This document shows positions 16,805-49,651 of a DNA stretch of 53,295 nucleotides, piece by piece. Source of the DNA: a virus (taxonomy: Duplodnaviria > Caudoviricetes); IMG/VR virus record IMGVR_UViG_3300033076_000662, positions 1 through 53,295 of that record; one strand, written 5' to 3'. Position numbers and translations under genes: made by a program. Under the pieces are notes generated by a model that had not been told where the DNA came from, ran no database searches, and worked only from the letters and a program-made list of their open reading frames with translations. Position 1 is the stretch's first letter. Each line of letters opens with the position of its first letter.

Positions 16805-16833
16805 TTGACCAAGCCCCGAAGTTGTGTTATACT
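16805..16833 (+). promoter_or_regulatory. rightward sigma70-like promoter pointing into non-coding element copy 1
   Basis: TTGACC-N17-TATACT with an extended TG; divergent from a leftward TGGTATAAT at 16783-16791 that serves the primase gene. Confidence 0.65.
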
Positions 16834-16851
16834 AGAATCTCTCGGGGCCGT

Positions 16852-17317
16852 GGTGCAACGCCACATGTATTCTTCTCCCCACACCCTGTATCCGCCGTAT
16901 CCGGCATCATGGAACAGCAATGGAACACCCCCTCTCGAATGGAAGAACCGGTTCTGTATCCGTGTTCCACGCACGCGGGGGTAATTCTCTGTCGCAGACT
17001 TGCGACAGCAATATAGTATATATACGGATACAGCGGATACAACGGATACAGAATACACCTCTCCATTCGAGAGAAGTTGTATCCGGCACTGTATCCGTTA
17101 ACCAATACGGGCGGATACAAATTGTTCAGACGGCGGACCTCTCTCCATTGGCACCTAGGGTCAAACCCGGAATCTCCCACGTGTGTGCGCGTTGTAGATA
17201 AGAGAAGGGGTCTTCGTTGCTTTCTGAATATTCCGGGCTATATTAGTAGCTTGAATATTATCAGAACGCAACGAAGACCCCAAGGAGAGGCTCGGAGACA
17301 CATTCAGGTGTGTCTCC
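16852..17317 (+). repeat. non-coding iteron/hairpin element, copy 1 (inverted paralog of about 49095-49613); putative origin or ncRNA
   Basis: CGGATACA/TGTATCCG repeats (three in tandem at 17024-17050), palindrome CTGTCGCA-GACT-TGCGACAG, AT-rich tract and a long hairpin at 17207-17281. Confidence 0.85.
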
Positions 17318-17326
17318 AGTACCGGG

Positions 17327-19336
17327 TTAACGCTGTTCAGCCGCTTGAATGTCCCGCTCGATATCGGGTAGGTCGGTACTGCCAGCGGTGGCGGGCCGCA
17401 AATCGTTCTCGATGTCCGGCATTTCACCTCCACCGCTCGGTGCTGGGAACACGGCCCCGGTAAGACCGGTCGTCACACCCGCCTGTGCTGTGGTTGCCTT
17501 TAGTGCCTTCGGCGCCTGTTGCGCCGTGTGTTCTTCCAACAGCTTGACCGCCGCCGCCACCTGATGGGGGTCGTGTGCCGCCAACATGTCCGCCAGTTTA
17601 GCCGCCACGCTGTCTGTCATCGTGGCCTTGTTGAATCCACGCATCACGGTGCCAACGAGCGATGGCCAGAAGCTGCCGGTGACAGCGCCCGTCACCACTT
17701 CTCCGACCCCTGGTTGACTTTCCAGCGCTTCTCTACCCTGCATGGTCTTTGCAGTTTGAGATCCGCCGAGTACCCGGTTGGCTTCAGTGAACAGCTGCGC
17801 TTCACGCTCCAGGGCTGTTTTGAACAGGCGGAACTGCTCCGGGGTGTCGAATAGCGGCATGAGCTTGGCCTGTGTTTCCGGTGAGCCAATCACGCCCTGT
17901 GCGGCGTTGCGGTTGCTGCTCGGACCCATGATGCTACCGTAAAGGTTGCGGGCCACCCCGGTGCGGAACGCCTCCTTCTCTGCCTGGGACATGCCGGCGA
18001 CCATTTTCATTATCTGTTCATGGTCAAGCTTGCCGAAGTCGTTATACCCGGTGCGCATAGCATCCAGCACTTCCATGTCACCAGCGTAACCCCGGCGTGC
18101 CGCAGCGTATTCCGGCACATTCTGGTCTATAGCGTTTACGAATTCCTTGCGCAGCTGACGCAGGGCGTTCGCTTCCGATTTCGACATGCCTTGACCGTTA
18201 AATCCGGACTCGATAGTAGCGTCGATGCCGCGTTTAATGTAATCAAGGGTTCGAACATCTGGAAGCTGGCGCAGGTTGAATCCCTGAAGCACCGGCAGCC
18301 CGGTTTGCGGGTCGTTGATATAAATTGGCTCATGGATGTCCGGGAGCTTGAACCTGGAGGGGTCTTCGCCGCGCAGCTTTGCAGCAAGGGCCTCCTTGTT
18401 GGCGATGTCACGTGCTTTGTTGTAGAAACCGGCAAAAGAGGGGTCTTTCAGGATCTCGGTAATCCGAGGGTCATCAACGGGGCCTGTGGCGTAGGCTTGA
18501 TCGTACAACGTGCCGGCTTTGGACCTCAGCTCTTCCACTAGTCGCTGTTCATCACCGTAGTAATCTCCGGGCTGCAAGCCACGACGAACTTGCTGGTACG
18601 TGCGTTCACGCGCGCCGGCTTTCTGCTTGATAAGTTCACGCTCCAGGGTCTGCGCACCCTGTCCCGTGCGCTGAGCCACGGCACGTGCCAAGTCAACCGT
18701 GGCGGGGGAGACGTTGGCAAGTCGGGACGGCACCTGCAGCAACCGGTCAACAGACATGCTGGTCTCGGCTTGCCTGGGGCTGATGCCCGCATCACGTAGC
18801 GCCTGCGCCAGCTTACCGGTGGCTACGCTTTGCACGTACTCATCGCTGGGGGCCAGTCGTTCGCGCAGCCAGCGAGCACCGGCCCCGGCACCCCTCAGCG
18901 CCACAGGGACGCCGACCCCGGTCACGCCGCCGAGGATGCCGCCGGCAACTGCGCCGCCTACGCGCTCGCCTTCTTTGGCTGCACCCGCGCCGGCAACCGC
19001 ACCGCTGCCGGCACCAATGGCTCCGAGCCGGGCGAGTGTCGCCAGTGTGGAGCGACCGAGCTGCTGGGCACCCGCTGCCTGTCCGCCAGGGATCATCATC
19101 GCGGCGACACCGGGGGCAGCCCCGCCAGCGAACTCACCCAGGGTCTGTGCTACTGGGTGTTCCTTGGCGAACCTGCCGTACTCATTGTGGATCTTGGCCA
19201 GCGCCTGGTCGTAGCCTTCGTCGCCAAGCTTGGAGCGCAGCCACGCTTCGGCCTCGTCACCCCAGCCCATCGCAAGACCCTGGCCCAGCGTGGCCCGCGC
19301 CAGGTTGGCGGCGTAGTTGGGTTGATTGTCTGCCAT
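17327..19336 (-). CDS. internal virion / DNA ejection protein
   Basis: 669 aa, Gly/Ala-rich N-terminal helices (QG...GWGDEA.A), last gene of the virion module. Confidence 0.65.
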   Translation of the reverse strand: MADNQPNYAANLARATLGQGLAMGWGDEAEAWLRSKLGDEGYDQALAKIHNEYGRFAKEHPVAQTLGEFAGGAAPGVAAMMIPGGQAAGAQQLGRSTLATLARLGAIGAGSGAVAGAGAAKEGERVGGAVAGGILGGVTGVGVPVALRGAGAGARWLRERLAPSDEYVQSVATGKLAQALRDAGISPRQAETSMSVDRLLQVPSRLANVSPATVDLARAVAQRTGQGAQTLERELIKQKAGARERTYQQVRRGLQPGDYYGDEQRLVEELRSKAGTLYDQAYATGPVDDPRITEILKDPSFAGFYNKARDIANKEALAAKLRGEDPSRFKLPDIHEPIYINDPQTGLPVLQGFNLRQLPDVRTLDYIKRGIDATIESGFNGQGMSKSEANALRQLRKEFVNAIDQNVPEYAAARRGYAGDMEVLDAMRTGYNDFGKLDHEQIMKMVAGMSQAEKEAFRTGVARNLYGSIMGPSSNRNAAQGVIGSPETQAKLMPLFDTPEQFRLFKTALEREAQLFTEANRVLGGSQTAKTMQGREALESQPGVGEVVTGAVTGSFWPSLVGTVMRGFNKATMTDSVAAKLADMLAAHDPHQVAAAVKLLEEHTAQQAPKALKATTAQAGVTTGLTGAVFPAPSGGGEMPDIENDLRPATAGSTDLPDIERDIQAAEQR

Positions 19337-19342
19337 GTTCTA

Positions 19343-21499
19343 TTACTCCAAATTGCCAGGGGTTGAATCAGTAGACCGGTAGAGTCCGGACTTGATCTCG
19401 TTGAGTCGTTTTTCTTCCCGTGCTCGGCGCTCCTTGGCAGCTTTGTAAGCGCGTTGGATGATCTTTGCCCGGTCTTCCGGAGTCTTAGAGCCTGCGCCCT
19501 CCAGCTCCATCAGGATAGCGCGTTCACCCTCCGTCGGAGCGCCGCCGAATGTGGTCTTGAGTTTAGACATGACTTGGCTGCCCAGCAGGTTCTCGACTTC
19601 CGATGTGTTCGACAATTTTGGGTCTTTAACCCCGGTCTCTTGCAGCAGCTTCCGCTGTGCCCGTTCAATCGCAGTGTTTCCGAATGTATTCGGGTTCAGC
19701 TGGTAGGCCCGATTCAGATCTTGCAGGGCGCTGTCCAAGCTAGACAGCGCGTTTTCAGTTTCCGTCTTGAGCTGCACTTCGGCCGGGGTTAGCTTGGCGG
19801 ACTCGGATTTCCTCAGGTCCAAACCCTGTTGTTGGATACCCAGGCTGAGGGCTTTGAAGAGATTACCGCCTTCCAACTTTTGCTTCACGTAGTCGTTTAC
19901 GAATTGGTTGAATTCCGGCGTCCCCTTTTGCAGCCCCGCATCCAGTGCTGCCTTACCGGCCTCGGATTGGGGGCGACCTGATGCCAGCTCTTCCCTGAGC
20001 AGGTCGCGCACAAAACCGGAACGGGTTTTCGCTTCATCAGCAGCCAGTTGCCTCGTGGTGGCGAGGTCTTCACGGGCATTGGTCGCGCGCATTTTTTGCG
20101 CTTCAAGCATGAGTTGCAACTGTTGCTTGCGGGCTTCAGACTGAGCGGAGCGAGTTTCTTTCTGGTGAGCTGCCATTTCGGCACCAGCCAAGGCTGCGTT
20201 TTCCATGAAGCTCCCGGTCTTGGTCGGAGCACCGAAAGCGGCTGCCAGCCGGAAGTACAACTCAGCTTTCGACGGTCCCGCGCTTTCCGGGTTTGCCGCA
20301 AGCTTGGCCAGCATCTCGTTGAACGCACCGAGTTCCTTATCCGACCGAGCCCGCGCGGTGTGCAGCTCCTCCGCGTATGGTGACGGGGATTGTTCATACC
20401 TGGAGAGCATAGCGGCCAGCGGGCCGGCTGTCGAGCGGGTCGTTGGTACGTCAGGTTGCGGTGTTGGCAGCGCGGGGAAAGAAGATGCGGGTCGGGCTAA
20501 GATACCCGCCGGAACCAGGGGTGAGAGTCCGAATTTCGTGGACTTTGAAGATCCGACGAAATTGGCCACCGGGTCTGCGATACCCTGAGCGGCTGCGTCC
20601 TTACGAATCAAATCAACAAGCTCCGGGCTCAGGTTGCTACCGCCCGTGAGTTGAGGCAGGGCCTGCGGGTCCGACCCTGCTTGGCTTGTGTCTACTTCAC
20701 CACCCTCGGCATATTTCTTCACGAGACCGCCCATGCAGTATCCATCACCGCCATCCGAGTCCCCGCCGTCCGACCCGTCAGAATCTGATCCGTACCCGCC
20801 GCCCCCGATAGTCCCAACGTCAGGAGCATCACCGAGCGCGCTGAATCCGTTATCAGAGCCGTGGCTACCGCCGCCGTTCCAGGTGGGCGCTATATTGGTC
20901 TGAGCCTGTGTCTGACCAGCGATAGAAGAGATTGCCGGAGCTGCGGATTCCCGCAATACTCCCGTCAGGTTAGGCATCTGCGGCGTGCTGTATTTGGGCA
21001 GGCCCAGCACGTTATTGCCCCAATAGTTGCCGGTGGCTCGGTAGATGTCTTCGTTACTTACACCCCACTGACGTTGGGCATCGGACACTTCGGCCGGGGT
21101 TGCAGATTGATGCTGCTGAAGCCAGTCGCGGATATTGGCGTAGTATTGGTTGGCCCCGATACCTTCCGGGGCAGTGGCAGAGGTGTACCCGGCTGAGCTT
21201 GCTTTATCCAACGGCAGAGCACCGGTTCCGAACTGAGAGCGGGAATACATCGGGGTGGAGGTCAGCCGATTGCGATACTGTGTGGAATAGTCGTTGTAAG
21301 CTTGCTGGTCCGCTTTATAGCTCGCCAAGTCGGCGTCATATTTAGCCTGCAGCTCTTCCAGCGGGATGCGTTCTTGCGTTCCAGGACGATACACAAGCAT
21401 GTCTGCCTCCGGTTTGACGGGGGCAGACATCCCACCGTACACCAACGCCGGGGTGGACACCCCGTACTGCTGCATCAGCCGATTAAGTTCGTAGCTCAT
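19343..21499 (-). CDS. internal virion / DNA ejection protein
   Basis: 718 aa with coiled coils, a C-terminal LK.TFGG.PTEGER pattern, a low-complexity linker and YAEGG. Confidence 0.65.
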   Translation of the reverse strand: MSYELNRLMQQYGVSTPALVYGGMSAPVKPEADMLVYRPGTQERIPLEELQAKYDADLASYKADQQAYNDYSTQYRNRLTSTPMYSRSQFGTGALPLDKASSAGYTSATAPEGIGANQYYANIRDWLQQHQSATPAEVSDAQRQWGVSNEDIYRATGNYWGNNVLGLPKYSTPQMPNLTGVLRESAAPAISSIAGQTQAQTNIAPTWNGGGSHGSDNGFSALGDAPDVGTIGGGGYGSDSDGSDGGDSDGGDGYCMGGLVKKYAEGGEVDTSQAGSDPQALPQLTGGSNLSPELVDLIRKDAAAQGIADPVANFVGSSKSTKFGLSPLVPAGILARPASSFPALPTPQPDVPTTRSTAGPLAAMLSRYEQSPSPYAEELHTARARSDKELGAFNEMLAKLAANPESAGPSKAELYFRLAAAFGAPTKTGSFMENAALAGAEMAAHQKETRSAQSEARKQQLQLMLEAQKMRATNAREDLATTRQLAADEAKTRSGFVRDLLREELASGRPQSEAGKAALDAGLQKGTPEFNQFVNDYVKQKLEGGNLFKALSLGIQQQGLDLRKSESAKLTPAEVQLKTETENALSSLDSALQDLNRAYQLNPNTFGNTAIERAQRKLLQETGVKDPKLSNTSEVENLLGSQVMSKLKTTFGGAPTEGERAILMELEGAGSKTPEDRAKIIQRAYKAAKERRAREEKRLNEIKSGLYRSTDSTPGNLE

Positions 21500-21515
21500 A
21501 GGTTCATCCTTGCTT

Positions 21516-22847
21516 TTACGGGGTTGTCAGACCTTTGTACAGCGACAGCCCCTGCGCCAGCTGCGCCAACGGGGAGGCAGAATATGTAGCGCCCGAGGTC
21601 GTGTTCGAGCCTGTGGTAGATGTCGGCGTAATGGGTGCCATACCACGAATTTGAGTGCTGAGCCAGTCAAGTTGCTGCTTGGGGTACAACTGTTGGGCTT
21701 GATATTGCTGGTAAGCCGCATCCAGCTGTTTTTGCATCTGGTTTTGTTGCGACAATCCGGCAGATTCCAGCGCTGCCACGTCGGCAGTGCCCATAGTTTG
21801 CCCGAGTTGAGCCATGTTAGCTAGCCCAGTGAGTGCGCTTTGCTGCCGCGCCAGGTCGGAGCTGGCCAGTTGGCCCGCTTGCGCGCCGAGATTGGCGTAT
21901 AGTTGGGCCTGGGCCTGATTCAGGCCACCCATCGTACTGGCCATCTGTCCGTATTGGGAAGACCCCTGCAGCTGTTGGTTAATAGCCTGTTGCTGGGCGT
22001 TGGACAGAGCTTGACCGCCTTGGAGGACCGCCTGTTGCTGGGCCGTGCCCAAGCTGCCCGCCGTGGAAGCCAGCTGTGCTGCGCGGGCTTGGTCTTGCTG
22101 CGCTGCGGTCAGGGCCTGTCCGTAGCCGGACTGCAAAGCCTGTGCCTGTTGACCGAGTATGGATTCTTGAGTGTCTCGCAGGGCGCGGGAACCGAACTCA
22201 CCCATACGGGTGCCGCCGAATTGCCCAGCCCTAACGAAAGCATCAGACACGCCGGGAAGGAGGTTTTCAGTTAGATTCCTAGCCCCGAGTTCAGCAATTC
22301 TGTCCGTCACTGCCGTGTTGTACGGATTCATATAGTCCGTCACCCCCTCGTAAGCCCCGCGCGAGGCTTGCTGTAGGTAGGGGGACGCGGACTGGAGACC
22401 GCCGTACGATATTGCCTGCTGGACATAAGGGTCCAACATGCTGACGGCTTTGGAGTAATCCATCCCTTTGAGGAGACCGGACTGAGTATCGATGTAGGGT
22501 TTGGCCGAACCGGCAATATCGACGTTCTCGGCTTTTGTAAAATACGGGGACGCCGCGTCCGACGCCCCGGTAGAGCTGGCCAATCCAGCCATGCCGGCTT
22601 GGGCTTGCTGCAGGGTGGGCCGCCACGCGCCTTGGTTGGCCTGCACCTGCTGATACGCCTGCTGTTGCAGCGGGGACAGCTCCGCTACCGTCGGCAGCTC
22701 GTACGCCTGGTATGGCGTGTTGGCTATATTGGTGGCAACCTGGATCTGGTTGTAGATCGCGTCCTGCATCCACTTCGGGGTCTCAGTGGACGATGTGGTG
22801 TAAGACGTGGCGGTTTGGGGTGCACCTTGGAACAAACTATTGGCCAT
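21516..22847 (-). CDS. internal virion / pilot-like protein
   Basis: Gln/Ala-rich; YMNPY...V and AGQFGG.R pattern typical of podovirus ejection proteins. Confidence 0.65.
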   Translation of the reverse strand: MANSLFQGAPQTATSYTTSSTETPKWMQDAIYNQIQVATNIANTPYQAYELPTVAELSPLQQQAYQQVQANQGAWRPTLQQAQAGMAGLASSTGASDAASPYFTKAENVDIAGSAKPYIDTQSGLLKGMDYSKAVSMLDPYVQQAISYGGLQSASPYLQQASRGAYEGVTDYMNPYNTAVTDRIAELGARNLTENLLPGVSDAFVRAGQFGGTRMGEFGSRALRDTQESILGQQAQALQSGYGQALTAAQQDQARAAQLASTAGSLGTAQQQAVLQGGQALSNAQQQAINQQLQGSSQYGQMASTMGGLNQAQAQLYANLGAQAGQLASSDLARQQSALTGLANMAQLGQTMGTADVAALESAGLSQQNQMQKQLDAAYQQYQAQQLYPKQQLDWLSTQIRGMAPITPTSTTGSNTTSGATYSASPLAQLAQGLSLYKGLTTP

Positions 22848-22848
22848 T

Positions 22849-24492
22849 TTAACGGGCCTCCTTCAAATAAGCGAGCGGAGATTTGGCGTTCGCGCTGAAC
22901 TGACCACGGGCCATCGATTTCCCTTTATGTTGGCGGACTTGTTGACGCATGGCGTCTAGCCTGCGTGCGCCTTCTTTGGTGCTACCGTCACCCAGTAGGG
23001 CCACAGTTTCAGCGTCCATCACGTATTCGCCGTCCGACAACCTGGCGTCGATGGTGTCTGCCCTGCCAGAGCCGGAGCCGCGTGCCAGGTAGGCCACCTG
23101 CGACAACGCCCCGCCACGGGCCAACCTGGGAACCGGTTGGTTGTATTTGCCGCCGGTGATGAGGTTCCAGTTCCTGGCCATGTACTCAGGTAGCGCAACA
23201 CCGGATTTGGCGGCGTCCTGCTGCATGGCGTTCCAATCCCAAGTTATGCTCGGGCGGTTGAAGTATTCACGCTGTTCAGGGGACATCGTGGACACCGCCT
23301 GTTGAACGGACGGAGGGGCTGAGGAGAGGGACCCAAGCAAAGTAGCCCCCATCATCAATTCCTTCGGCCCCAGTTTCCCGAACACGCCCGAGTCCGTGGT
23401 TGGGGCGGGGCCGGAACCCTCATACCCATAGTTGGAATTCATGAAAGCCCTGTCAGCCGAGCTGGCTCCGGCCTGTCTGGCGGACTCAACAGCAGTCTTG
23501 GAAGGACTGTAGCTGGAGTGCAGACCGCTGGCTAGACCCGCCAAGCCCGCGCCGGCTAGGGATTCACCCGGTTTGAATCCTGCGGCCATCATGTTGCCGA
23601 ATTGAGAGCCCGCAGTGTTAACCCCGGTGCCGAAAGCACCCGTACCTCCTGCACCCTGCACCTGGGAACCCAGGTAACTACCGAGTGCACCCTGCACCGC
23701 ACCCCGCAAAGCGCCTTGACCAGTCGCAGCACCCATTGCGCCGCCGATGATACCAGACCCGAGAGCGTTCTGAGCGACCTGCCCCATACCGGGGGCCATT
23801 GCTCCGCCAACTACGCCGCCTAAGCCCTGCCCCATGGCTCCGAGAGCAGCGCCCTGCAGGGGGTTCCCGCCAGCCAGCGCCGAACCCAAACCTCCGGTGA
23901 CCGCCCCACCTAGGATAGCGCTACCAACCGTACCCAACCCCAGACCTAACGCACCGCTGATGGCAGTGCCGACTCCGGGAGCTACGATGCTCAACGCGAT
24001 CGGGGCCACCGTTTTAATCAGGCTCTTCAGAGAAAAATACTCGGGGAGCCCCGTGGTCGGGTTGATGGAGCCGCTACCCCCTGAGCGCCGCAGCATTTCG
24101 GCCTCTCGCGGGTTGATATGTGCCAGCATAGTGTCACCACCACGGCCGGCAGCCCGGAGCCGCTGCGCTGCCTGCGCTAGGCCGCCACGCGCGAATCCTT
24201 GTTGCTGCAACCTGGACGCCAGCTTGTACATGACAACCAACAGTGATACCAGGACCACAGGCTCAAACTGCTCGGGCAGATCCTCCGGGTCAAGCAGGCC
24301 GCTACGTATCGCTTTGTCGCGGATGGACTGGTAGTCTTGTGGGGAAGACAGGGCCGCTTCCAGTATGGAGATCAATTGCTGCGCGTCGCCGGCCGTGACG
24401 GGCATATCGCCCATTCTTTGTTCTGCCGCAGCTACGGCCTGCGCAATCTGCGGGTTGGTCTCCGCCACTTGCATCAATTGCTGTTTATTCAT
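22849..24492 (-). CDS. internal virion / DNA transfer protein
   Basis: RGGDT.LAHINP.EA..L...GG.G.INP.TGLPE and G.G.GR.D.I.A.LSDGEYV motifs; Gly-rich hydrophobic middle. Confidence 0.65.
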   Translation of the reverse strand: MNKQQLMQVAETNPQIAQAVAAAEQRMGDMPVTAGDAQQLISILEAALSSPQDYQSIRDKAIRSGLLDPEDLPEQFEPVVLVSLLVVMYKLASRLQQQGFARGGLAQAAQRLRAAGRGGDTMLAHINPREAEMLRRSGGSGSINPTTGLPEYFSLKSLIKTVAPIALSIVAPGVGTAISGALGLGLGTVGSAILGGAVTGGLGSALAGGNPLQGAALGAMGQGLGGVVGGAMAPGMGQVAQNALGSGIIGGAMGAATGQGALRGAVQGALGSYLGSQVQGAGGTGAFGTGVNTAGSQFGNMMAAGFKPGESLAGAGLAGLASGLHSSYSPSKTAVESARQAGASSADRAFMNSNYGYEGSGPAPTTDSGVFGKLGPKELMMGATLLGSLSSAPPSVQQAVSTMSPEQREYFNRPSITWDWNAMQQDAAKSGVALPEYMARNWNLITGGKYNQPVPRLARGGALSQVAYLARGSGSGRADTIDARLSDGEYVMDAETVALLGDGSTKEGARRLDAMRQQVRQHKGKSMARGQFSANAKSPLAYLKEAR

Positions 24493-24504
24493 GTACAGTG
24501 TCTT

Positions 24505-28506: not shown

Positions 28507-28508
28507 AA

Positions 28509-43196: not shown

Positions 43197-43206
43197 CAGG
43201 AACTCC

Positions 43207-45261
43207 TTATTGTCCGTGCATCAGTTCTGTGCGCAGCTGTTCAACCATGCTATCCACTAGATCCGGATTATAACTTACTGGTTCGGCATTTACAAGTCCG
43301 CCGGTTGCAAACCCCTCAGTGGGTCTATTTATCACGGCGCTTTCGATTGCTCTCGCGTCCGCGTAGGACAGGTAATTCGGGACATCGAATCCAAGGTCGC
43401 GGATGCCCCGCAGTTGTTCATTGCCAAAATAATCTTCGGCGCGAAACAGACCGGCGTTCTCAATGTCACCTACTTTATCCCACTTCCCGCTTTTCACAAA
43501 GTCTTGGACATATGGCAGATATTGCTCGCCCGGTGCCTTGTTCTGCTTGCCCTTAATCTGGACAATGGAAGGCTCGAACGGCCCGATTTCTGGAACGTAC
43601 CTGCCGAGCCTATCATCCAGTCTCCAGCGCAGATTAGGATCGAGGACACCGCGCGATTTTAGCGACTCGTACACATCTGGTGGCAGGTCCTTTTCGTGCA
43701 ATAGACCTGTGGGGTCTGCGCCCGGTGCTACTTCAACCGTCACATGCGGATTGCCTTTCGCATCGCGCAGTGAGTAGATCTTGGTCTTGCCGGATTCGAC
43801 CTTGGAGCAGTATCCGCCGACACAGTTATCCATCAGGCGGCCTTCATTCTTGAGCTGTTCCTCCAGCAGTCGGGTGGCGTCGTCCCCGGCATCAGTCGGT
43901 TTCGTGATCTCCACCCACCGCAGCCCGCGCGCACTCTCGGGGTATTCTTTGAATGTTTGAACGGCCGGCGACTGTGCCAGTTTTGCTGCTTTCGCCGCAT
44001 CCCGCGCTGCTTGTTGTTCGGCCTGCCATGCGTGGATGTCTGCTGCCCGCTGCGCCGCTTTCTCCATGGAATAGCCGGCCAAGTCTTCTGGTTTCAGTCG
44101 CAGATGCTCCGGCATCCTAGTGCGCGGATTCAGTGCGTACTCCAACGTGTTGACCAGCTCCGGAAGACCGGCACCGGCGGGGTCTTCACTCAACGAACCC
44201 AGAGTATATACTGGTTCATTGGGGTCGAGCTTCGACAGCCAAGGGTTGGATTCGGCATATCTTGGGAAACGCGATGCGAATTCCCCGGCAGGGGTGCTCT
44301 TTACCACCAAATCGGAGCCACGCTCCCACCCTTTGGCCGCCGGGCTCTGCGCCATGCCTTCAACCGGGAACCCAGCTTTTGCACGCGCTTTGCGCACGGG
44401 CCATGGGGTGTATGTCGGGTCGCCTAGTTGCCAGAAGTCTTCCAGCGGAACGTGCGCCTGCGATTTTTCCGACATCCGCAGCGCGTCCTCTGCCGCCTGC
44501 AATCCGGTCTCACCTTGATACTGTGCGCGGTCGATAGCGCCCTCCCAGATTCCGGGCGGCATGCCAGGGCGTGGGCCTTCAGCACGGATCTGCGCCGCGC
44601 GGGCCAACTGCTTATTGGCCTCATCTGCCGCCGTCTGGTAAGCCGACTGTGCAGCACCGGCCCGACGCTCGATCATCATTCGCACCGGGTCTTCCGGCGT
44701 TCCCATGTAAGTCTTGACATACTTGGTCAGCGGGCCTTCGATCCACTTGTTGATTGCAGCCTCCGGCCCCGCTTCGTCGACGCCAAGTGGGCGTTTCAAG
44801 GGGGATAGGTTCTCTTCGATCGACTGCCCGATCCAGTTCCCGCCCTTCGGCTTGACCACGTGAACCGGGACGTTGGATTGCAGGAATTCGCGCCCGGCTC
44901 GGCTCACGGCAGAAGGCAGGGCAGCCACGGCGCGCAGGGGCGAGCCGGGACCGTTGTAGAACCCGCCAGCGAGTTGCCCGCCCGTAGTCGCCACTCGGCC
45001 CACCGGTGTCTCGCTCACAGAGCGCAGAGGTAGACGACGCTCCACATCTTCCGATGTCGGCAGCACGGTGCGCTCGGACAGGCCGGGTAGCATACGGACC
45101 AACGATTCAATATCGCCCGGCGCACCTAGGACCCCGGACAGGAAGCCCCGCAGGGCGGCCAGCGGCGCATCAGCCGAAGCTCGACGGTCCTGCTGGGACT
45201 CGGGACGCCTGCCGGCGCTACGGTACCCGATGTACGGGTGGTTCAGATCTTCATCGGCCAC
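43207..45261 (-). CDS. polyvalent-type protein with a PcfJ-like domain
   Basis: L..EG..M.NCVGGYC....G...IYSLRD..G.PHVT.EV...I.QIKGK.N; C-terminal FATGGLV. Confidence 0.7.
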   Translation of the reverse strand: MADEDLNHPYIGYRSAGRRPESQQDRRASADAPLAALRGFLSGVLGAPGDIESLVRMLPGLSERTVLPTSEDVERRLPLRSVSETPVGRVATTGGQLAGGFYNGPGSPLRAVAALPSAVSRAGREFLQSNVPVHVVKPKGGNWIGQSIEENLSPLKRPLGVDEAGPEAAINKWIEGPLTKYVKTYMGTPEDPVRMMIERRAGAAQSAYQTAADEANKQLARAAQIRAEGPRPGMPPGIWEGAIDRAQYQGETGLQAAEDALRMSEKSQAHVPLEDFWQLGDPTYTPWPVRKARAKAGFPVEGMAQSPAAKGWERGSDLVVKSTPAGEFASRFPRYAESNPWLSKLDPNEPVYTLGSLSEDPAGAGLPELVNTLEYALNPRTRMPEHLRLKPEDLAGYSMEKAAQRAADIHAWQAEQQAARDAAKAAKLAQSPAVQTFKEYPESARGLRWVEITKPTDAGDDATRLLEEQLKNEGRLMDNCVGGYCSKVESGKTKIYSLRDAKGNPHVTVEVAPGADPTGLLHEKDLPPDVYESLKSRGVLDPNLRWRLDDRLGRYVPEIGPFEPSIVQIKGKQNKAPGEQYLPYVQDFVKSGKWDKVGDIENAGLFRAEDYFGNEQLRGIRDLGFDVPNYLSYADARAIESAVINRPTEGFATGGLVNAEPVSYNPDLVDSMVEQLRTELMHGQ

Positions 45262-46663
45262 AAGAACACTCCTTCAATTGTGCGAGACCGCCACGGGCAT
45301 AATTACTGTACATTGGGTTTTCATCCGAGTGGATGATCAGCTGATCGATGGGGCGATCATAACTGTCCGCCGGGTATGTTGCTCGGCGTTCTTCCGGCGA
45401 CATCTTCATACGGGCCTGCACTGCGCGGGCCTCCGCTTCCCCGGCCAATCGGGCATAATTCTCAACCGGGTCGTCGGCCACCATACGATCGATCATCGGG
45501 TGCTCAGCCAGGTCCCAAGCGGCAGGATCTGGACTGCGACCGTAGGTACTCTTAAACCACCGACTGATGGTCATCCGGTCCGTCCCTTGGGCCAGCTCGT
45601 CCGCGATGGTTTTGGCGTCACCAATCAGTGGGGTCGGGAACATCCCCGGATTGCCGCCACGGCCGAAACCCTCGCGGGCTTGGATAGCATGTTGTAGCTC
45701 ATGCAGCGTGGTAGATTTATCCGAGCTAAATGTCGGGATCGACTGTATGTTTATTTGCTCCACTCTAGTGGGGTCCGCGCGCATGTAGGCCCCTCGGGAG
45801 GTCATCATGGGGTCCACCCTGGTGTGCATCCTATATAGATCGGGGTACGCCCGGCCGAGGTCTCCGTGTGCCAGGTAGGAGCTTACTGGACCGGAAACTC
45901 GATTGCGCATATAAGACATCAAGTCAGACAGACCTGACCGGTCGTTGGACAATTTCAGCGCCAATTCTTTGTTCCCGGACAAGGCGGCATCAATGATGGC
46001 CTCTCCGGTGGTAGCATATTCGTCTTTCAGCTGTTTTAGCGTTTTCTCAGCATATGGGGCAGTGGCCCACACACGCCTTATTTCGTCGGAGCCGCTGGCC
46101 CTATTGAGCGCGTTAATATACGCATCACGGGGTGTATAGAAATAGTCGCGGATGCGGGCCTTGCTGTCATCTATCTCTTGCCTCAGTATTCCCTCCGGCC
46201 CGCGCCAAGTACCGGTTTCCCGCCAAATATCTCGGGGATCTATGCCTGCTGTTTCCATTTCTGCGGCACGCTGCGCAGCGGCGGCATCCCAGGTCTTGGA
46301 CTTCGGGCCGACGAAAACACCCGCCTGACGGCTCAGAGCACCCTCGACGTTCCTGGGGGCGGCGGATAGCGTAGCGCCTTTAGACGCTTTCAACGCGGAC
46401 AGACCACCCATTATGGGTGCAACCTGCAATGCAGTACCGGCTGCGAATGCCGGTTCGGCTGCGCGCATGATGGCGACCCTTTGTGGATGCAGTGCGCTGA
46501 CTCCCAATTGGTCGGGTGTTTCGCCTAGGAAAGACCGCAGAGCAGCCATACCGACCGGCACGGGAGACTCGTTGATGTTCGTCGTCAGCTCCGGATTGAG
46601 CGCCCCTCCAGGCAGCGCATCACCCAGATATTTCTTGAATTCCGACCAGATACTAGGCTGCAT
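45251..46663 (-). CDS. polyvalent-type protein with LPD23-like and zincin metallopeptidase domains
   Basis: G..P..IW.ETG..RG..G..R.EI.D; HELQHAIQ..EGF..GG (HExxH); Y..LAGEAEAR.VQ.R; start trimmed to MQPSIW. Confidence 0.7.
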   Translation of the reverse strand: MQPSIWSEFKKYLGDALPGGALNPELTTNINESPVPVGMAALRSFLGETPDQLGVSALHPQRVAIMRAAEPAFAAGTALQVAPIMGGLSALKASKGATLSAAPRNVEGALSRQAGVFVGPKSKTWDAAAAQRAAEMETAGIDPRDIWRETGTWRGPEGILRQEIDDSKARIRDYFYTPRDAYINALNRASGSDEIRRVWATAPYAEKTLKQLKDEYATTGEAIIDAALSGNKELALKLSNDRSGLSDLMSYMRNRVSGPVSSYLAHGDLGRAYPDLYRMHTRVDPMMTSRGAYMRADPTRVEQINIQSIPTFSSDKSTTLHELQHAIQAREGFGRGGNPGMFPTPLIGDAKTIADELAQGTDRMTISRWFKSTYGRSPDPAAWDLAEHPMIDRMVADDPVENYARLAGEAEARAVQARMKMSPEERRATYPADSYDRPIDQLIIHSDENPMYSNYARGGLAQLKECSCGR

Positions 46664-48224
46664 AGGGGTTGCCTGCTTTCTTTCTATATTCCCGTGGTTC
46701 GATGATCTCGGCCGCCTGCGGCAGTTCAAACCAGCCTTCGTTCTTGAGATAGATGACAGCCTGAGTAAAGGTGTCCACGTAGTCGTCGTGCTCATCGACC
46801 GGGAATTTAGCCACTTGGCGCATGAACTTCGATGCCCAGCTGACAGTCTGGCCCGGGTTCTTGGTCGATTCCGGCACCCAAATCAATCCGAGTTCTAAGG
46901 TCGGTGCGGTTTGGTGCGCTCGCGATACTTTATCCGCGTTGCCCGGATTGTACCCGATCGCCGGGACTTTTGCCAAGTGTAGGTCTTGTAGCAGGGACTG
47001 CCCCGATGCTTTCGCTTCAACCAAGATGCGGTCTGGCCGTCGGGCGCGTACAAACGGCTTATCCTTCGACCCGCCACCGTACTCGGTTGTCCAGTCATCA
47101 ATAGCGCGCCGGCGCAGGTCTGGGTAACTCAGGTGCTCATCCCAGGCATCGATCAGCATCAATTGGCGTTCGTTCTTTAATGTAAACACGCCCCAGACGG
47201 TGCAAGCTGTCGGGTCCCCACTGCTCTTCTCGGTAAATGCACAATCGTACGACTGCAAAATGTACTCGAACTGTGGCAGCCCCGAATCCTTGGGCCACAA
47301 ATTGATGTATTTGGTCTTTAGGATACCGCCGCCGCTCGGGGTCGGGTCCTGCTGCAGCTGCCCCGACGACTGGTAGGTGCCCAACAACTGCTTCAGTCGG
47401 GTTATTTCCTCCTCACCAAATCGGTCGGGACAGATCAGCTCGCCGTCTTTGGTGCGTGGGTCGTAACGGCCGCGCGACGTGGTTCGGATCTTCCCGTCGT
47501 ATTCTGCCGGGATGCAGATGTGCTCCCATCCACCAATATCCTCTAGGATATGGCCTGAGATGTCCTTCTGGTGCAGTCGCTGCATAACCGTCACCATCGC
47601 GTCGGTCTTGGGGTTATTCAGTCGGGTGCTCCACACCGCGTCAAACCACTCCAAGGTCGATTCCCGCATTGTGTCGGACTGCGCGTCCTGGGCACCGTGC
47701 GGGTCATCCAGAATCAACCGTGAGCCGCCTTCACCGGTGGCTGTGCCGCCGACCGAAGTCGCCAGCCGATAGCCTGTCCGGTTGTTTTCGAACCGCTTTT
47801 TCTCGTTCTGGTCGCCAGTAAGGCTGAAAATGTCGGACCACCGCTCTTGGTACCAAGGGGACTGCAGCAGTCGGCGGGCTTTAAGATTGTCTCGAATCGA
47901 AAGGCTGCCCGAATATGATGCGGCCAGGAATTTTTGCTCCGGCGCATGTAACCACTCCCAGCAGCACCAGCCGACAGAAACAATCGTAGACTTCGAATGT
48001 CGCGGCGGGATGTTGATAAGCAAGCGGGAAATCTCACCACGGGAGACGGCCTCCAGATGTTCACAGATGACCTGGATATGCCAGGACGGGACAAATTCCA
48101 CGCCCGGCTCCATGTGCGGCCATGCTTGCCGGATGAACTCATAAAGTGATGACTCGGCTAGTCGCCGGGATCTCTCCCGACGAACCATGTCCATCATAAC
48201 TACGGGAGAAAAGGCGCTGGCCAT
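46653..48224 (-). CDS. terL: terminase large subunit
   Basis: LLINIPPRHSKS Walker A, ILDDPH Walker B, MQRLH, QSYD.A and HDDYVD motifs. Confidence 0.92.
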   Translation of the reverse strand: MASAFSPVVMMDMVRRERSRRLAESSLYEFIRQAWPHMEPGVEFVPSWHIQVICEHLEAVSRGEISRLLINIPPRHSKSTIVSVGWCCWEWLHAPEQKFLAASYSGSLSIRDNLKARRLLQSPWYQERWSDIFSLTGDQNEKKRFENNRTGYRLATSVGGTATGEGGSRLILDDPHGAQDAQSDTMRESTLEWFDAVWSTRLNNPKTDAMVTVMQRLHQKDISGHILEDIGGWEHICIPAEYDGKIRTTSRGRYDPRTKDGELICPDRFGEEEITRLKQLLGTYQSSGQLQQDPTPSGGGILKTKYINLWPKDSGLPQFEYILQSYDCAFTEKSSGDPTACTVWGVFTLKNERQLMLIDAWDEHLSYPDLRRRAIDDWTTEYGGGSKDKPFVRARRPDRILVEAKASGQSLLQDLHLAKVPAIGYNPGNADKVSRAHQTAPTLELGLIWVPESTKNPGQTVSWASKFMRQVAKFPVDEHDDYVDTFTQAVIYLKNEGWFELPQAAEIIEPREYRKKAGNPYAA

Positions 48225-48245
48225 TCCGTTATCACCTTTATCATC

Positions 48246-48788
48246 TCAGCTGTCACTGGTGGGCTTGGTCGCAGCGGCTTTCATCATCAATTTCTCAACC
48301 ACTGCCAACTCTTCGTCGGTGAGGTTCTTGAGATCGAGCGACGAGATTTGAAGCGGTGAACCGTCCGGGCCGGACACTTCACTGGTGATTTTTTCCCCGT
48401 ACTGTTTGGGTGCGACGCAGCGGGCGCGCCACCGGTAGTGGCTGGCCAGCTCCTTCGCACGCATGAGCGACATTTTGTCTTCCGCTGTATTGAGTTTGTG
48501 CTCGGCCAGCTCATCCCAGAGGATTGCGGCGTGTGCGCGCGCCTCACGCGTGCGAGTCTGCCGTTCGGGTGACTTAGATACCCAGTATACGACCGCTGAT
48601 GGGTGCACGCCGAGCTTTGCCGCTATCACGGCCATCGATTCCCCGCCCATGATGTCTTGGCACACCGCATCGAGCCCGTACTGGTCGATTTTATACTGCG
48701 CATCCCACTGATTTTTGGGGGTCTTGAGTTCCTTCTCAGTGGGCGGTGCCTTGGGCTTCGGGGAGTAATACCTGCTGTGGTCTATCAT
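48246..48788 (-). CDS. terS: terminase small subunit
   Basis: HTH (G.S...IA..LGV...V..W), AR...A...E and W.A....PK.YG.K motifs; upstream of terL. Confidence 0.75.
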   Translation of the reverse strand: MIDHSRYYSPKPKAPPTEKELKTPKNQWDAQYKIDQYGLDAVCQDIMGGESMAVIAAKLGVHPSAVVYWVSKSPERQTRTREARAHAAILWDELAEHKLNTAEDKMSLMRAKELASHYRWRARCVAPKQYGEKITSEVSGPDGSPLQISSLDLKNLTDEELAVVEKLMMKAAATKPTSDS

Positions 48789-49094
48789 GATACTTAGTCC
48801 TCATTCGGATGTGCGCGATAGTGCGCTACCGGATCTGCGACGTGCAGCCACCGGGGGCTTCTTTAAATGCTTGAATTCTACCACGGGTATTTCTGGGACA
48901 CAACGACCGCGTATCTGAATAGTGCGGATACTGGGCAGATACAGGTATATACCGGAAACCCTTGGTCGGTGTTGCGCCGCAGCAAGAACTGTTTCGAGTT
49001 TGTAACAAAGTGTAACAAGCCGGAAGTGGTGTGCGCTAGCCACTGGCTGTTTTAGAAGGGCAGGCAGCTGGGCACGCGGCACTCCTGGGGCGCA

Positions 49095-49613
49095 CCGATG
49101 TGTCTCCGAGCCTTTTCTTGGGGTCTTCCTTGCGCTCTGACGATATCTGAGCTATATTAGTAGCTTCTCGGGCTTCCGACGCAAGGAAGACGCCTTCTCG
49201 CGTCTTTTTCACGCTTACACGGGGGAATTCTAGGTTTGACCATAGGTGCCGAAAAAGAAAAGTCCGCCGTCTGAACAGCTTCTCCGATCTTGTATCCGCC
49301 CCTATTCGTTAACGGATACAGTGCCGGATACAGGCTTTTTCGAATGGAAGAAGGGTTTCTGTATCCGTTGTATCCGCTGTATCCGTATATATATACTATA
49401 TTTGTCGCAAGTTTGCGACAGAAACGAGCCTCGCACGGGCGTGGAACAACGGATACAGATCCCCCTCGGAATCTGCTCTCTCGAATGGAAAAGGGGGTTT
49501 CTTGTCTGTATCCGGCTCTGTTCCATCATGCCGGATACAACGGATACAGAAGGCGGTTTCTGAATCCCTCTGCAGGTACGATCACCCATGTGCAGAGACC
49601 CGGCGTTGCACCG
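49095..49613 (-). repeat. non-coding iteron/hairpin element, copy 2 (inverted paralog of about 16852-17317)
   Basis: Reverse complement aligns with copy 1: TGTATCCG x3 at about 49360-49386, TGTCGCAA-GT-TTGCGACA at 49403-49420, hairpin at 49123-49191. Confidence 0.85.
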
Positions 49614-49622
49614 AGTCCTTAC

Positions 49623-49651
49623 AGTATATCACACCGCCAGTATTGCCGCAA
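49623..49651 (-). promoter_or_regulatory. leftward sigma70-like promoter pointing into element copy 2
   Basis: TTGCGG-N17-TATACT with an extended TG, followed by GGTGCAACGCC as in copy 1. Confidence 0.6.

What the first reader, a model, noticed from the sequence alone, without database searches (positions are those of the whole stretch)
16805..49651. Two diverged inverted ~500 bp non-coding elements bracket the entire virion module
Seen directly: 16852-17317 and the reverse complement of 49095-49613 share the same ordered parts. These are GGTGCAACGCC, TATCCG repeats, GGCATxATGGAACA, a TGTCGCA..TGCGACA palindrome, an AT-rich ATATAGTATATATA tract, three tandem 9-bp NCGGATACA units, two opposite TGTATCCG units, GTTCAGACGGCGGAC, GGCACCTA.GGTCAAACC and a long terminal hairpin. 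Spacers have diverged while the motifs are kept, so this looks like a maintained functional pair, not a recent duplication or assembly artefact. The copies sit at the two module borders, upstream of the primase gene and upstream of terS. Inference: twin opposed replication origins, paired structured ncRNAs, or recombination ends that invert or exchange the 31.5 kb morphogenesis module. I do not know this arrangement from described phages.
Basis: partly seen in the sequence, partly recalled or inferred. Interest (0 to 1): 0.9.

Follow-up and report, generated by a model that had tools for sequence, protein, structure and literature searches.

The report
Paired iteron arrays in Z-genome phage
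Two diverged copies of a roughly 500-base non-coding array of short protein-binding repeats sit at the two borders of the virion genes of a phage predicted to use 2-aminoadenine DNA, and they most likely act as a pair of replication origins.

Summary
Window 16805-17320 (+) and 49095-49640 (-) are 80% identical inverted copies. All 18 TGTATCCG sites in the window lie inside them, against 1.5 expected by chance.

The window is a near-complete phage record carrying PurZ, a DatZ-like HD hydrolase, a family-A polymerase, an AEP primase and an SNF2-type helicase. That places it in the 2-aminoadenine (Z-genome) group of Acinetobacter phage SH-Ab 15497 and Salmonella phage PMBT28.

Two arrays were found in 12 of 12 genomes that carry this primase module: one upstream of the primase, and in the nine read one ahead of the late genes. 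They are absent from 2 of 2 genomes that share only the virion module. The repeat word differs by lineage: TGTATCCG, TGTTCCAY, TGTTACAY or GGTTGCTC.

Each core has rough twofold symmetry around a TGTCGC-N6-GCGACA palindrome. Repeat words change without compensating changes in their partners, and RNAalifold finds no conserved fold. The repeats are therefore protein sites on DNA, not RNA stems.

- **Best reading (0.45):** an origin pair like SPP1 oriL/oriR.
- **Main rival (0.27):** operator arrays for the replication and late operons.
- **Not supported:** inversion of the virion module.
- **Orientation:** inverted in 8 genomes, direct in 4.

The parts
16805..17320 (+). Element A, whole, written in element orientation, which is antisense to all genes
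   Evidence: It is conserved upstream of the primase in 9 of 9 primase loci.
16805..16833 (+). Promoter-like site P_A (TTGACC-17-TATACT with a TG before the second hexamer), reading into element A
   Evidence: The scan gives 10 of 12 matches. An equivalent TTGAC(T/C)-17-TACACT/TATACT is present in L026-L034. It is not evident in G009, PMBT28 or SH-Ab.
16783..16811 (-). Promoter-like site P_primase (TGGTCA-17-TATAAT with TG), back to back with P_A and reading into the primase operon
   Evidence: The scan gives 10 of 12 matches. The ATTATACCAC/ATTATAACAC block is conserved in relatives.
16850..16864 (+). Hairpin of copy A close behind the promoter: stem GTGGTG/CGCCAC with a CAA triloop
   Evidence: Over 11 distinct hairpins, 54 of 55 cells in the first five pairs are paired. 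Pairs 3 and 4 show changes on both sides. Pairing is strand-specific: 61 of 66 cells on the element-sense strand against 46 of 66 on the complement.
16887..17119 (.). Repeat array of copy A: 8 exact TGTATCCG sites in both orientations, plus TGTTCCAC and ATGGAACA sites
16990..17007 (.). Central palindrome TGTCGC-AGACTT-GCGACA, followed by the AT tract at 17010-17024
   Evidence: The half-sites are kept and the central 6 bp vary in relatives. The CCATTCGA motif pair and a repeat pair are symmetric about roughly position 17002.
17178..17191 (.). Alternating purine-pyrimidine tract CACGTGTGTGCGCG
   Evidence: Equivalent tracts occur in G007-G009, G001, PMBT28 and SH-Ab.
17207..17281 (.). Long imperfect hairpin with tip GCTATATTAGTAGC. 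Read on the minus strand it follows the stop of the 669-aa gene and is followed by TTCTCTTATCT, so it is probably the terminator of the late operon.
   Evidence: The G-C to C-G change against copy B is compensated. The terminator role is my inference from reading; the scan tool cannot call loops this long.
49095..49640 (-). Element B, whole, in element orientation, which is the same sense as the genes
49623..49651 (-). Promoter-like site P_B (TTGCGG-17-TATACT with TG), overlapping the stop codon of the 143-aa gene and reading through B towards the late genes
   Evidence: Read. The scan tool did not call it, because the first hexamer matches only 3 of 6. TTGAC(G/T)-17-T(A/G)(G/T)AAT sits at the same place in G001, G006, G007, G008 and G009.
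49596..49618 (-). Hairpin of copy B close behind the promoter: GGACTCGGTG-CAA-CGCCGGGTCT
49291..49548 (.). Repeat array of copy B: 10 exact TGTATCCG sites
49403..49420 (.). Central palindrome of copy B: TGTCGC-AAACTT-GCGACA
49120..49194 (.). Long hairpin of copy B. Its tip reads GCTACTAATATAGC in element orientation, so on the window's + strand it reads the same as the tip of copy A.
   Evidence: This hairpin is absent from the B copies of G001 and G006-G009.
48875..48903 (-). Promoter-like site P_late (TTGTGT-17-TAGAAT with TG), 87 nt upstream of terS
   Evidence: Read and not called by the scan. Relatives carry GGTATAAT/TAATTCGCGCC just before their first late gene.
49001..49018 (-). Two direct TTGTTACA units (49011-49018 and 49001-49008), the third repeat word seen in relatives, between B and P_late
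   Evidence: TGTTACA is the dominant word in G008.
15189..16748 (-). AEP (Prim-Pol type) primase, 519 aa, a candidate initiator
   Evidence: PHROG 21866, E 2e-119. Pfam AEP-TOTE, and a sub-threshold PriCT_1 match. The model's N-terminal half matches CAPP Prim-Pol, S-2L PrimPol and RepB'.
13464..15185 (-). SNF2-family SF2 helicase, 573 aa, with a variable N-terminal 100 aa or so
49629..50060 (-). 143-aa gene directly upstream of B in the seven environmental genomes examined, including the window; a possible Hjc/RecU-like nuclease
   Evidence: PHROG 2165. The Atlas lead scores 0.94 and the families are carried by only 12-56% of cluster members. Synteny is shown.
48246..48788 (-). Small terminase subunit (Sf6-like), the first gene of the virion module

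Best explanation
The two elements are paired assembly sites for DNA-binding proteins, and they belong to the phage's replication module. Each is a roughly 300-bp array of about 12-14 short (8-bp) binding sites with rough twofold symmetry. The sites face both ways around a central TGTCGC-N6-GCGACA palindrome. The flanks carry a short AT tract, two alternating purine-pyrimidine tracts and promoters.

I read them as the phage's two replication origins, in the manner of SPP1 oriL/oriR. Copy A sits next to the primase-helicase operon and would be the primary origin. A phage-encoded sequence-specific protein would coat the repeats there. The AEP primase and the SNF2-type helicase are the candidates I favour, but neither is shown to bind. 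The centre would then be opened, helped by transcription from P_A or P_B reading into the array. The primase would prime synthesis by the family-A polymerase.

Copy B lies between a possible Hjc/RecU-like nuclease gene and terS. It would bind the same protein and act either as a second origin or, as proposed for SPP1 oriR, as a bound barrier that stalls the fork and triggers the switch to concatemer synthesis just upstream of the packaging genes.

**Shown:** the anatomy, the conserved pair, the link to the replication module, the lineage-specific repeat words, the concerted evolution of the two copies, and the absence of a conserved RNA fold in the core.

**Inferred:** that a protein binds, which protein it is, that replication starts here, and the different roles of A and B.
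For: 1. **Repeat arrays confined to two loci.** 18 of 18 TGTATCCG sites lie in the two elements. The same holds for 18 of 20 in G001, 18 of 18 in G010 and 14 of 14 in G006.

2. **The pair is conserved.** Two arrays were found in 12 of 12 genomes with this primase module in which both could be sought: the window, G010, G001, G006, G007, G008, G009, SH-Ab 15497, PMBT28, K21lambda1, PSA28 and Kokobel2. For the last three, the second array is known only from a pattern match. An element lies upstream of the primase in 9 of 9 primase loci from the viral collection.

3. **The elements travel with the replication module, not the virion module.** G002 and G003 share terL at 74-77% and most virion genes, but lack the primase, helicases and polymerase. 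They have 2 and 0 TGTATCCG sites and no match to the element. Of 80 loci related by terL, only 1 (G010 itself) has a cluster.

4. **Repeat words change by lineage at homologous positions, in both copies of a genome together.** The words are TGTATCCG, TGTTCCAY, TGTTACAY, CGTTCCAT and GGTTGCTC. The A and B copies of a lineage group together with 100/99 and 100/100 support. A DNA site co-evolving with its binding protein would behave this way.

5. **Origin-like anatomy.** There is a palindrome with conserved half-sites and a variable centre, an adjacent AT tract, twofold symmetry, and promoters reading into the array. The position directly upstream of the primase-helicase operon also fits.

6. 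**No known initiator or DnaB-type helicase family appeared among the 41 ORFs scanned.** The replication module has an AEP primase whose model matches Prim-Pol enzymes and plasmid primase RepB'.

7. **There is a precedent.** SPP1 has two origin-like regions of similar organisation, both bound by gp38, one in the replication genes and one in the late region (PMC6316719, passages read; PMC3485210, abstract seen).
Against: - No binding protein is identified. Identity in sliding windows, compared between lineages with the same and with different repeat words, gave only weak signals confounded by phylogeny.
- Sites of 8 bp spaced 8-9 bp apart are shorter and tighter than classical 17-22-bp iterons. 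They resemble arrays bound by small repressors.
- The AT tract is short (15 nt) and is not conserved in the G001, G006 and L029 group. If the DNA carries 2-aminoadenine, an AT tract would not melt easily anyway.
- Each copy also sits at the head of a major operon next to sigma-70-like promoters. That suits a transcriptional role equally well.
- Base-composition skews give no replication signal.
- Relative orientation is not fixed: inverted in 8 genomes and direct in 4. 'Opposed twin origins' is therefore not a conserved feature.
- There is no experimental evidence of any kind.
Confidence: 0.45

Rival explanations
1. Operator arrays. A phage regulator binds cooperatively to the short repeats at the heads of the two large operons (primase/replication and terS/late). 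It sets the early-to-late switch, possibly by looping the two sites together. Replication starts elsewhere, or depends on recombination.
For: - Sigma-70-like promoters adjoin both copies: P_primase and P_A back to back at A, and P_B and P_late at B. Equivalent promoters occur in relatives.
- The 8-bp sites at 8-9-bp spacing, in mixed orientation, resemble arrays bound by small ribbon-helix-helix repressors. This comparison is from memory and was not tested.
- Further repeat-like units lie just upstream of P_late.
- In the PMBT28 group both copies face their downstream promoter the same way.
Against: - About 12-14 sites plus at least five other conserved blocks over 300-500 bp is far more than known phage operators need.
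- The inner end of copy A faces only the end of the late operon, with no promoter there.
- No helix-turn-helix, ribbon-helix-helix or other regulator family was found among the ORFs scanned.
- The elements co-occur strictly with the primase/helicase/polymerase module.
Confidence: 0.27
2. Cis-acting RNA. Transcripts from P_A and P_B carry a conserved stem-loop near their start (CAA triloop). It would act as a leader or RNA signal, for example for antitermination or stability, like the paired nut or put sites of lambdoid phages, or as a primer RNA.
For: - A promoter is followed 10-25 nt downstream by a hairpin whose stem covaries. Pairing is far better on the element-sense strand: 61 of 66 cells against 46 of 66, with 14 G-U pairs.
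- Contigs from two RNA libraries of one study cover 16618-17204. They carry no strand information and DNA carry-over is not excluded.
- Both strands fold far better than shuffles, with z of -9.2 and -9.0.
Against: - RNAalifold on 17 copies finds almost nothing: 14 pairs, -7.46 kcal/mol, covariation -0.1.
- Repeat words change on one side without compensation. For example, I1 and I2 are TGTATCCG in the window while I3 and I4 stay ATGGAACA.
- The strong fold on both strands simply reflects the twofold symmetry of the DNA.
- The CAA hairpin is missing from the A copies of G007-G009 and from the B copies of G001 and G006.
- No intrinsic terminator follows in the element sense, and P_A would read antisense into the tail genes.
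- There is no Rfam match. The best hits are generic microRNA hairpins far below threshold.
Confidence: 0.15
3. Recombination ends. The inverted copies are crossover sites that invert or exchange the 31.8-kb virion module.
For: - The copies are in inverted orientation in 8 of 12 genomes.
- A central palindrome with conserved half-sites and a variable 6-bp centre looks like a recombinase core site.
- Virion and replication modules are mosaic between relatives, with the breaks at these borders.
- The concerted evolution of A and B implies that the copies exchange sequence.
Against: - The central 6 bp differ between partner sites: AGACTT against AAACTT in the window, and AAGTCT against AAACTT in G010.
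- No integrase, invertase or transposase family appeared among the ORFs scanned.
- The primase and terL are co-oriented in all nine genomes where both were placed.
- Four relatives have direct copies.
- At 80% identity, with the longest exact shared run about 35 nt, the copies are a poor substrate for homologous inversion.
Confidence: 0.04
4. Packaging signal. The arrays are binding sites for the small terminase subunit (pac or cos type).
For: Copy B lies directly upstream of terS in the window, its environmental relatives and SH-Ab 15497.
Against: - There are two copies, and one is 32 kb away beside the primase.
- The window and G001 share the same repeat word, although their terS proteins are not detectably similar by tblastn.
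- G002 and G003 have a related terS (26-29% identity) but no arrays.
- In PMBT28 the second copy lies 2 kb upstream of terS.
Confidence: 0.03

Closest known systems
Bacillus phage SPP1 oriL / oriR, bound by gp38 (G38P)
   Same: In both cases a siphovirus carries two distant origin-like regions of similar organisation (repeats plus an AT-rich stretch). One lies in or next to the replication genes and the other in an intergenic stretch of the late region. In SPP1 both are bound by one protein, and the second is proposed to stall the fork and trigger the switch to concatemer synthesis with help from a Holliday-junction resolvase (PMC6316719, passages read; PMC3485210, abstract seen). Here copy B follows a possible Hjc/RecU-like gene.
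   Different: There is no sequence relation. SPP1 uses direct repeats, a gp38/gp39/DnaB-type gp40 set and host polymerases. This phage has short sites facing both ways in a symmetric array, an AEP primase, SF1 and SF2 helicases and its own family-A polymerase, and no gp38-like protein was found. Function here is untested.
Satellite phage P4 ori and crr, bound by the alpha primase-helicase (from memory, no call)
   Same: Two separated clusters of an 8-bp repeat are both needed in cis and are bound by a primase-containing initiator. The repeat length and the split into two sites are alike.
   Different: The P4 sites lie a few kb apart, and alpha fuses primase, helicase and DNA-binding domains. 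Here the primase and helicase are separate genes and the sites are 21 and 32 kb apart on the circle.
RSF1010 oriV with ssiA/ssiB and primase RepB'
   Same: The primase model matches RepB' (3h20, E 5e-4). RSF1010 uses two hairpin signals on opposite strands for primase-driven leading-strand starts (from memory). The strand-specific hairpin here sits on opposite genome strands in A and B.
   Different: The RSF1010 signals lie within one compact origin beside 20-bp iterons. Here the hairpins are 32 kb apart and are not present in every copy. The structural match covers only the catalytic fold.
Symmetric viral origins: SV40 core origin, and herpes simplex oriS, which is present twice in inverted repeats (from memory)
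   Same: Initiator sites lie in inverted arrangement around a central palindrome or AT element. In herpes simplex the origin is duplicated in inverted orientation and the origin-binding protein is an SF2 helicase.
   Different: Those are eukaryotic viruses with no homology to this phage. The weak match of the primase C-terminal part to the SV40 origin-binding domain (E 0.57) is not significant.
Lambdoid nutL/nutR (boxB) and HK022 putL/putR RNA signals (from memory)
   Same: Two copies lie in opposite orientation, each just downstream of a promoter, as small hairpins with a conserved loop and a covarying stem.
   Different: Those signals are 15-70 nt long and lie at the heads of divergent early operons. 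Here the hairpin is a minor part of a 500-bp DNA array, copy A reads antisense to all genes, and no N- or Q-like protein was found.

Membership tests
Iteron-type replication origin | Cluster of repeated binding sites confined to the origin | tested here: met
   18 of 18 TGTATCCG sites lie in the two elements, against 1.5 expected. The same pattern holds in relatives.
Iteron-type replication origin | Adjacent AT-rich DNA-unwinding element | tested here: inconclusive
   There is a 15-nt AT tract next to the palindrome in the window and G010, and TATATATAA in G007_A. The G001, G006 and L029 copies have none. Predicted 2-aminoadenine DNA would weaken its melting role.
Iteron-type replication origin | A cognate initiator protein binds the repeats | not testable with these tools
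   No initiator family was found. The candidates (primase, SNF2 helicase) are inference only.
Iteron-type replication origin | Replication starts at the site, or the site supports autonomous replication | not testable with these tools
   Composition skews are uninformative. Bench work is needed.
SPP1-like two-origin arrangement | Two similar repeat regions far apart, one by the replication genes and one in or before the late genes | tested here: met
   Found in 12 of 12 genomes. The SPP1 description comes from PMC6316719.
SPP1-like two-origin arrangement | Both regions are bound by the same origin-binding protein | not testable with these tools
   Indirect only: both copies of a genome share the same repeat words at the same positions.
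Structured non-coding RNA | Conserved secondary structure supported by covariation | tested here: not met
   For the core, RNAalifold gives -7.46 kcal/mol, covariation -0.1 and 14 pairs. Only the 15-23-nt hairpin behind the promoter covaries.
Structured non-coding RNA | Match to a curated RNA family | tested here: not met
   There were 0 matches at gathering score. Otherwise only sub-threshold microRNA-like hairpin hits appeared.
Site-specific invertible segment | A recombinase gene, and identical crossover cores in the two sites | tested here: not met
   No recombinase family appeared among the 41 ORFs scanned. The central 6 bp differ between A and B in the window and in G010.
Site-specific invertible segment | Both orientations of the segment occur | tested here: not met
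   The primase and terL are co-oriented in the nine genomes where both were placed. Short contigs cannot exclude rare isomers.
Mobile repeat (MITE or IS remnant) | Copies in unrelated contexts, ends with target duplications | tested here: not met
   There are only two copies. They sit at the same two gene borders in the nine genomes read, and beside the primase in all 12. The cultured-phage collection gave no DNA match.
2-aminoadenine (Z-genome) phage | PurZ plus a dATP-removing enzyme and a dedicated polymerase | tested here: met
   PurZ-type PHROG 1211 at E 1e-69, DatZ-type PHROG 7076 at E 2e-32, and a family-A polymerase. They are 36-49% identical to those of PMBT28 and SH-Ab 15497. The base itself is not measured.

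The most novel reading that the evidence does not exclude
These arrays are a kind of origin shaped by 2-aminoadenine DNA. Z:T pairs have three hydrogen bonds, so an AT-rich unwinding element no longer melts easily. The phage would instead open its origin by other means: a large symmetric protein array around a palindrome prone to form a cruciform, flanking alternating purine-pyrimidine tracts, and transcription reading into the array. An AEP Prim-Pol-type primase, perhaps with the SF2 helicase, would serve as initiator in place of a classical origin-binding protein. The second copy would act as a programmed fork barrier that starts concatemer synthesis next to the packaging genes.
Probability: 0.15. 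Interest if true: 0.8.

Novelty: new variant of a known kind. Interest (0 to 1): 0.55.

Why it matters
Nothing I could find in print says how phages with 2-aminoadenine genomes start replication or time their late genes. The searches were: PurZ with iteron; 2-aminoadenine with origin of replication, phage and primase; PurZ with intergenic, repeats and phage; and the listings for SH-Ab 15497 and PMBT28. I also read passages of two papers.

The pair described here is a conserved, sharply bounded, unannotated cis element. It is present in cultured phages (SH-Ab 15497, PMBT28, K21lambda1, PSA28 and Kokobel2), so the question can be tested directly at the bench.

The lineage-specific repeat words offer a natural specificity-swap experiment to find the binding protein. 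If the elements are origins, they would also be the piece needed to build plasmids that replicate as Z-DNA.

Tried and rejected
**Composition skews.** GC and AT skew in 2-kb windows showed no consistent break at the elements (window, G001, G008 and SH-Ab). Skew at four-fold degenerate sites differs between the late and early arcs in most of 8 genomes. The late genes favour both T and C, which looks like codon preference rather than a replication signal.

**Reads.** Only Logan contigs were available.
- Contigs of run X1 break at the triple repeat (17024-17046), as expected for a sequence shared with copy B, so they cannot address inversion isomers.
- RNA-library contigs cover 16618-17204 (X18 records 14 and 15; X19 records 21 and 22). 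They carry no strand or end information.
- X18 has no cover over 17417-18823. This is uninformative, because that gene is too diverged in relatives to be laid.

**Search for the binding protein.**
- Identity in sliding windows, between lineages with the same and with different repeat words, was confounded by phylogeny.
- The Pam3 gp32-like protein is invariant across lineages at many positions and looks like an enzyme or structural protein, so I dropped it as a specificity factor.
- Sequence searches of solved structures with the gp34-like protein, the 143-aa protein and the primase gave nothing useful.
- The C-terminal half of the primase model has low confidence and no significant structural match.

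**Other dead ends.**
- The cultured-phage collection gave no DNA match to 16000-20000.
- 8 of the 24 new loci found with the palindrome pattern had no further similarity to the elements and were not followed up.
- Complex prediction was not used, because no protein pair was in question.

Full report
**What is there**

The window is a whole IMG/VR virus record of 53,295 bases, estimated 97% complete. Nearly all long ORFs lie on the minus strand.

Positions 16805-17320 read on the + strand (element A) and 49095-49640 read on the - strand (element B) align over 617 columns at 80% identity. The repeat finder reports three collinear inverted arms. The word TGTATCCG occurs 18 times in the window, always inside the two elements, against 1.5 expected.

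**What the phage is**

The arc outside the virion genes encodes:
- an AEP primase (15189-16748);
- an SNF2-type helicase (13464-15185);
- three Pam3 gp32/33/34-like proteins;
- a UvrD-like helicase;
- an HNH endonuclease;
- a family-A polymerase with proofreading domain (7227-9053);
- a PurZ-type adenylosuccinate synthetase (5680-6726);
- a DatZ-type HD hydrolase (4828-5436);
- ThyX.

The closest cultured relatives by primase (40-43% identity) are Acinetobacter phage SH-Ab 15497, Salmonella phage PMBT28, Klebsiella phages, Pseudomonas phage PSA28 and Providencia phage Kokobel2. This is therefore a predicted 2-aminoadenine (Z-genome) siphophage. The modified base itself is inferred, not measured.

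**Borders**

Element A lies between the stop of the last virion-module gene (17327-19336) and the primase. Element B lies between a 143-aa gene (49629-50060) and terS (48246-48788). The language-model atlas places the 143-aa protein weakly near Hjc/RecU nucleases.

The scan tool finds two back-to-back sigma-70-like promoters at the outer end of A, both 10 of 12 with a TG. One reads into the element and one into the primase operon.

At B I read an extended -10 promoter over the stop codon of the 143-aa gene, and a second one 87 nt upstream of terS. The scan tool did not call either. Relatives, however, carry clear TTGAC(G/T)-17-TAnAAT sites at the first position.

The long hairpin at the inner end of A, read in the gene sense, follows the stop codon and is followed by a T-rich run. 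I take it to be the late-operon terminator. This is inference.

**Conservation**

All nine primase loci found in the viral collection carry the element upstream of the primase, in the same orientation.

I fetched whole records and found two arrays in each genome examined: one upstream of the primase, and one between the homologue of the 143-aa gene and the first late gene. This holds for the window, G010 (a close relative), G001, G006, G007, G008 and G009.

The cultured phages behave the same way:
- SH-Ab 15497 has its arrays at about 20.8-21.2 kb and 42.9-43.4 kb.
- PMBT28 has its arrays at about 20.7-21.1 kb and 43.5-44.0 kb.
- K21lambda1, PSA28 and Kokobel2 each have the triple repeat at exactly two places, one just upstream of the primase. 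I did not read the surroundings of their second copy.

That makes 12 of 12.

The control is G002 and G003. They share the virion module (terL 74-77%) but not the replication module, and have no array. Among 80 loci related by terL, only the one from G010 has a cluster of the two words tested. The elements therefore belong with the replication module.

**Anatomy and evolution**

An alignment of 17 copies shows one conserved order of parts:
1. a promoter;
2. a small hairpin with a CAA triloop;
3. two direct sites;
4. two inverted sites;
5. a CCATTCGA motif;
6. two direct sites followed by a CACGCG-type tract;
7. the palindrome TGTCGC-N6-GCGACA;
8. a short AT or TATAT tract;
9. three inverted sites;
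10. a second CCATTCGA motif or hairpin;
11. two direct sites and one or two inverted sites;
12. a TTCAGACGCC motif;
13. an alternating purine-pyrimidine tract.

The motifs and sites are roughly mirror-symmetric about the palindrome.

The word at homologous site positions differs by lineage:
- TGTATCCG in the window, G010, G001 and G006;
- TGTTCCAY in G007 and G009;
- TGTTACAY mixed with TGTTCCAY in G008;
- CGTTCCAT in the PMBT28 group;
- GGTTGCTC in SH-Ab 15497.

Both copies of a genome carry the same word at the same position. In a tree, the A and B copies of a lineage group together (100/99 and 100/100 support). Among close relatives they group by position instead. The two copies therefore evolve in concert.

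**DNA sites, not RNA stems**

In the window the first two sites are TGTATCCG, while their neighbours stay ATGGAACA. A stem would have needed a compensating change there.

RNAalifold on the 17 copies gives only 14 pairs, -7.46 kcal/mol and a covariation term of -0.1. Both strands of element A fold much better than shuffles (z -9.2 and -9.0). That is what a symmetric DNA array produces on either strand. There is no Rfam match.

The exception is the hairpin just behind the promoter. Over 11 distinct versions, 54 of 55 cells in the first five pairs are paired, two positions change on both sides, and pairing is much better on the element-sense strand. A transcript, or single-stranded DNA, of that strand probably forms it. 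It is absent from some copies.

**Mechanism**

I commit to paired replication origins, at 0.45. The reasons are:
- the arrays are confined to two loci;
- they track the primase/helicase/polymerase module;
- the site words co-vary with lineage in both copies;
- the layout is symmetric around a palindrome with an adjacent AT tract;
- promoters read into them;
- one copy lies directly upstream of the primase-helicase operon;
- no classical initiator or DnaB-type helicase is present, whereas the primase is of the Prim-Pol/RepB' kind.

SPP1 offers a documented precedent. It has two origin-like regions of similar build, both bound by gp38, one in the replication genes and one in the late region. The second is proposed to stall the fork and start concatemer synthesis with help from a resolvase (PMC6316719, passages read; PMC3485210, abstract seen).

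The main rival, at 0.27, is that the arrays are operators for a regulator of the replication and late operons, because each copy adjoins promoters. A combined role is possible.

**What the evidence does not support**

- **Inversion of the virion module:** the palindrome centres differ between the two copies, no recombinase was found, the modules are co-oriented wherever placed, and four relatives carry direct copies.
- **A packaging signal:** there are two copies, and the window and G001 share the same repeat word although their terS proteins show no detectable similarity.
- **'Opposed' orientation as a conserved feature:** it is inverted in 8 genomes and direct in 4, and the core is itself nearly symmetric.

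**Novelty**

I found no description of these elements in print (searches; passages; supplementary files closed). The GenBank tables for the records I fetched list only coding sequences there, and some place small hypothetical ORFs inside the element.

I rate the finding a new variant of a known kind. It is an iteron-type origin pair, or regulatory pair, with an unusual symmetric build from short sites, in phages whose DNA chemistry makes origin opening an open question.

Noticed in passing
window 2261-2296, 3954-3989, 7194-7229: Three copies of a 36-nt repeat. On the minus strand they read as TTATTGC-N-GTGTTATAATAAA, which looks like a shared promoter type ahead of early or replication genes. 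The -10 block resembles those of P_primase and P_B.
   Followed up: partly
window 9097-9651 (-): An HNH endonuclease gene lies between the UvrD-like helicase and the polymerase. It has no counterpart in any of the 10 genomes compared, including the close relative G010, so it is probably a recent homing-endonuclease insertion.
   Followed up: partly
window 17238-17251 and 49150-49163; L027, L029, L030, L034: The tip of the long hairpin (GCTA-N6-TAGC) flips its loop between close relatives: TATTAG in the window's copy A and in L029, CTAATA in L027 and L030. The two copies in the window read the same on the + strand although the rest of the element is inverted. This looks like recurrent small inversions of the hairpin loop, which would mean the stem forms in DNA.
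   Followed up: partly
window 13090-13422 (-): The Pam3 gp32-like 110-aa protein has many invariant residues across 16 homologues, with motifs VTQEV, APSGSP and LKWN. It is found in all eight element-bearing genomes compared, and its function is unknown. It may be a further conserved part of the replication or Z-base module.
   Followed up: partly
window 48801-49082 (-): The 93-aa ORF with a GTG start has no family hit and overlaps the predicted late promoter and repeat-like units, so it is probably not a gene. In the same way, small hypothetical ORFs are annotated inside the element in PSA28 and Kokobel2.
   Followed up: partly
window 15189-16748 (-), residues 284-298: The primase has four invariant cysteines (C284, C289, C293, C298) between the PriCT-like helical part and the C-terminal domains. 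This may be a zinc-binding element. The model has low confidence in this stretch.
   Followed up: no
G001 (L123) 69-210: A tandem array with a 9-bp period (ACCGGAACT-like units, about 11 copies) lies at one end of the record. I did not examine whether it is coding.
   Followed up: no
window 17327-49082 compared with 1-16748 and 49629-53295: At four-fold degenerate sites the late genes favour T and C on the coding strand (AT skew about -0.20), while the early and replication genes do not (about 0). The late arc is the more T-rich in all 8 genomes compared, clearly so in 7.
   Followed up: partly
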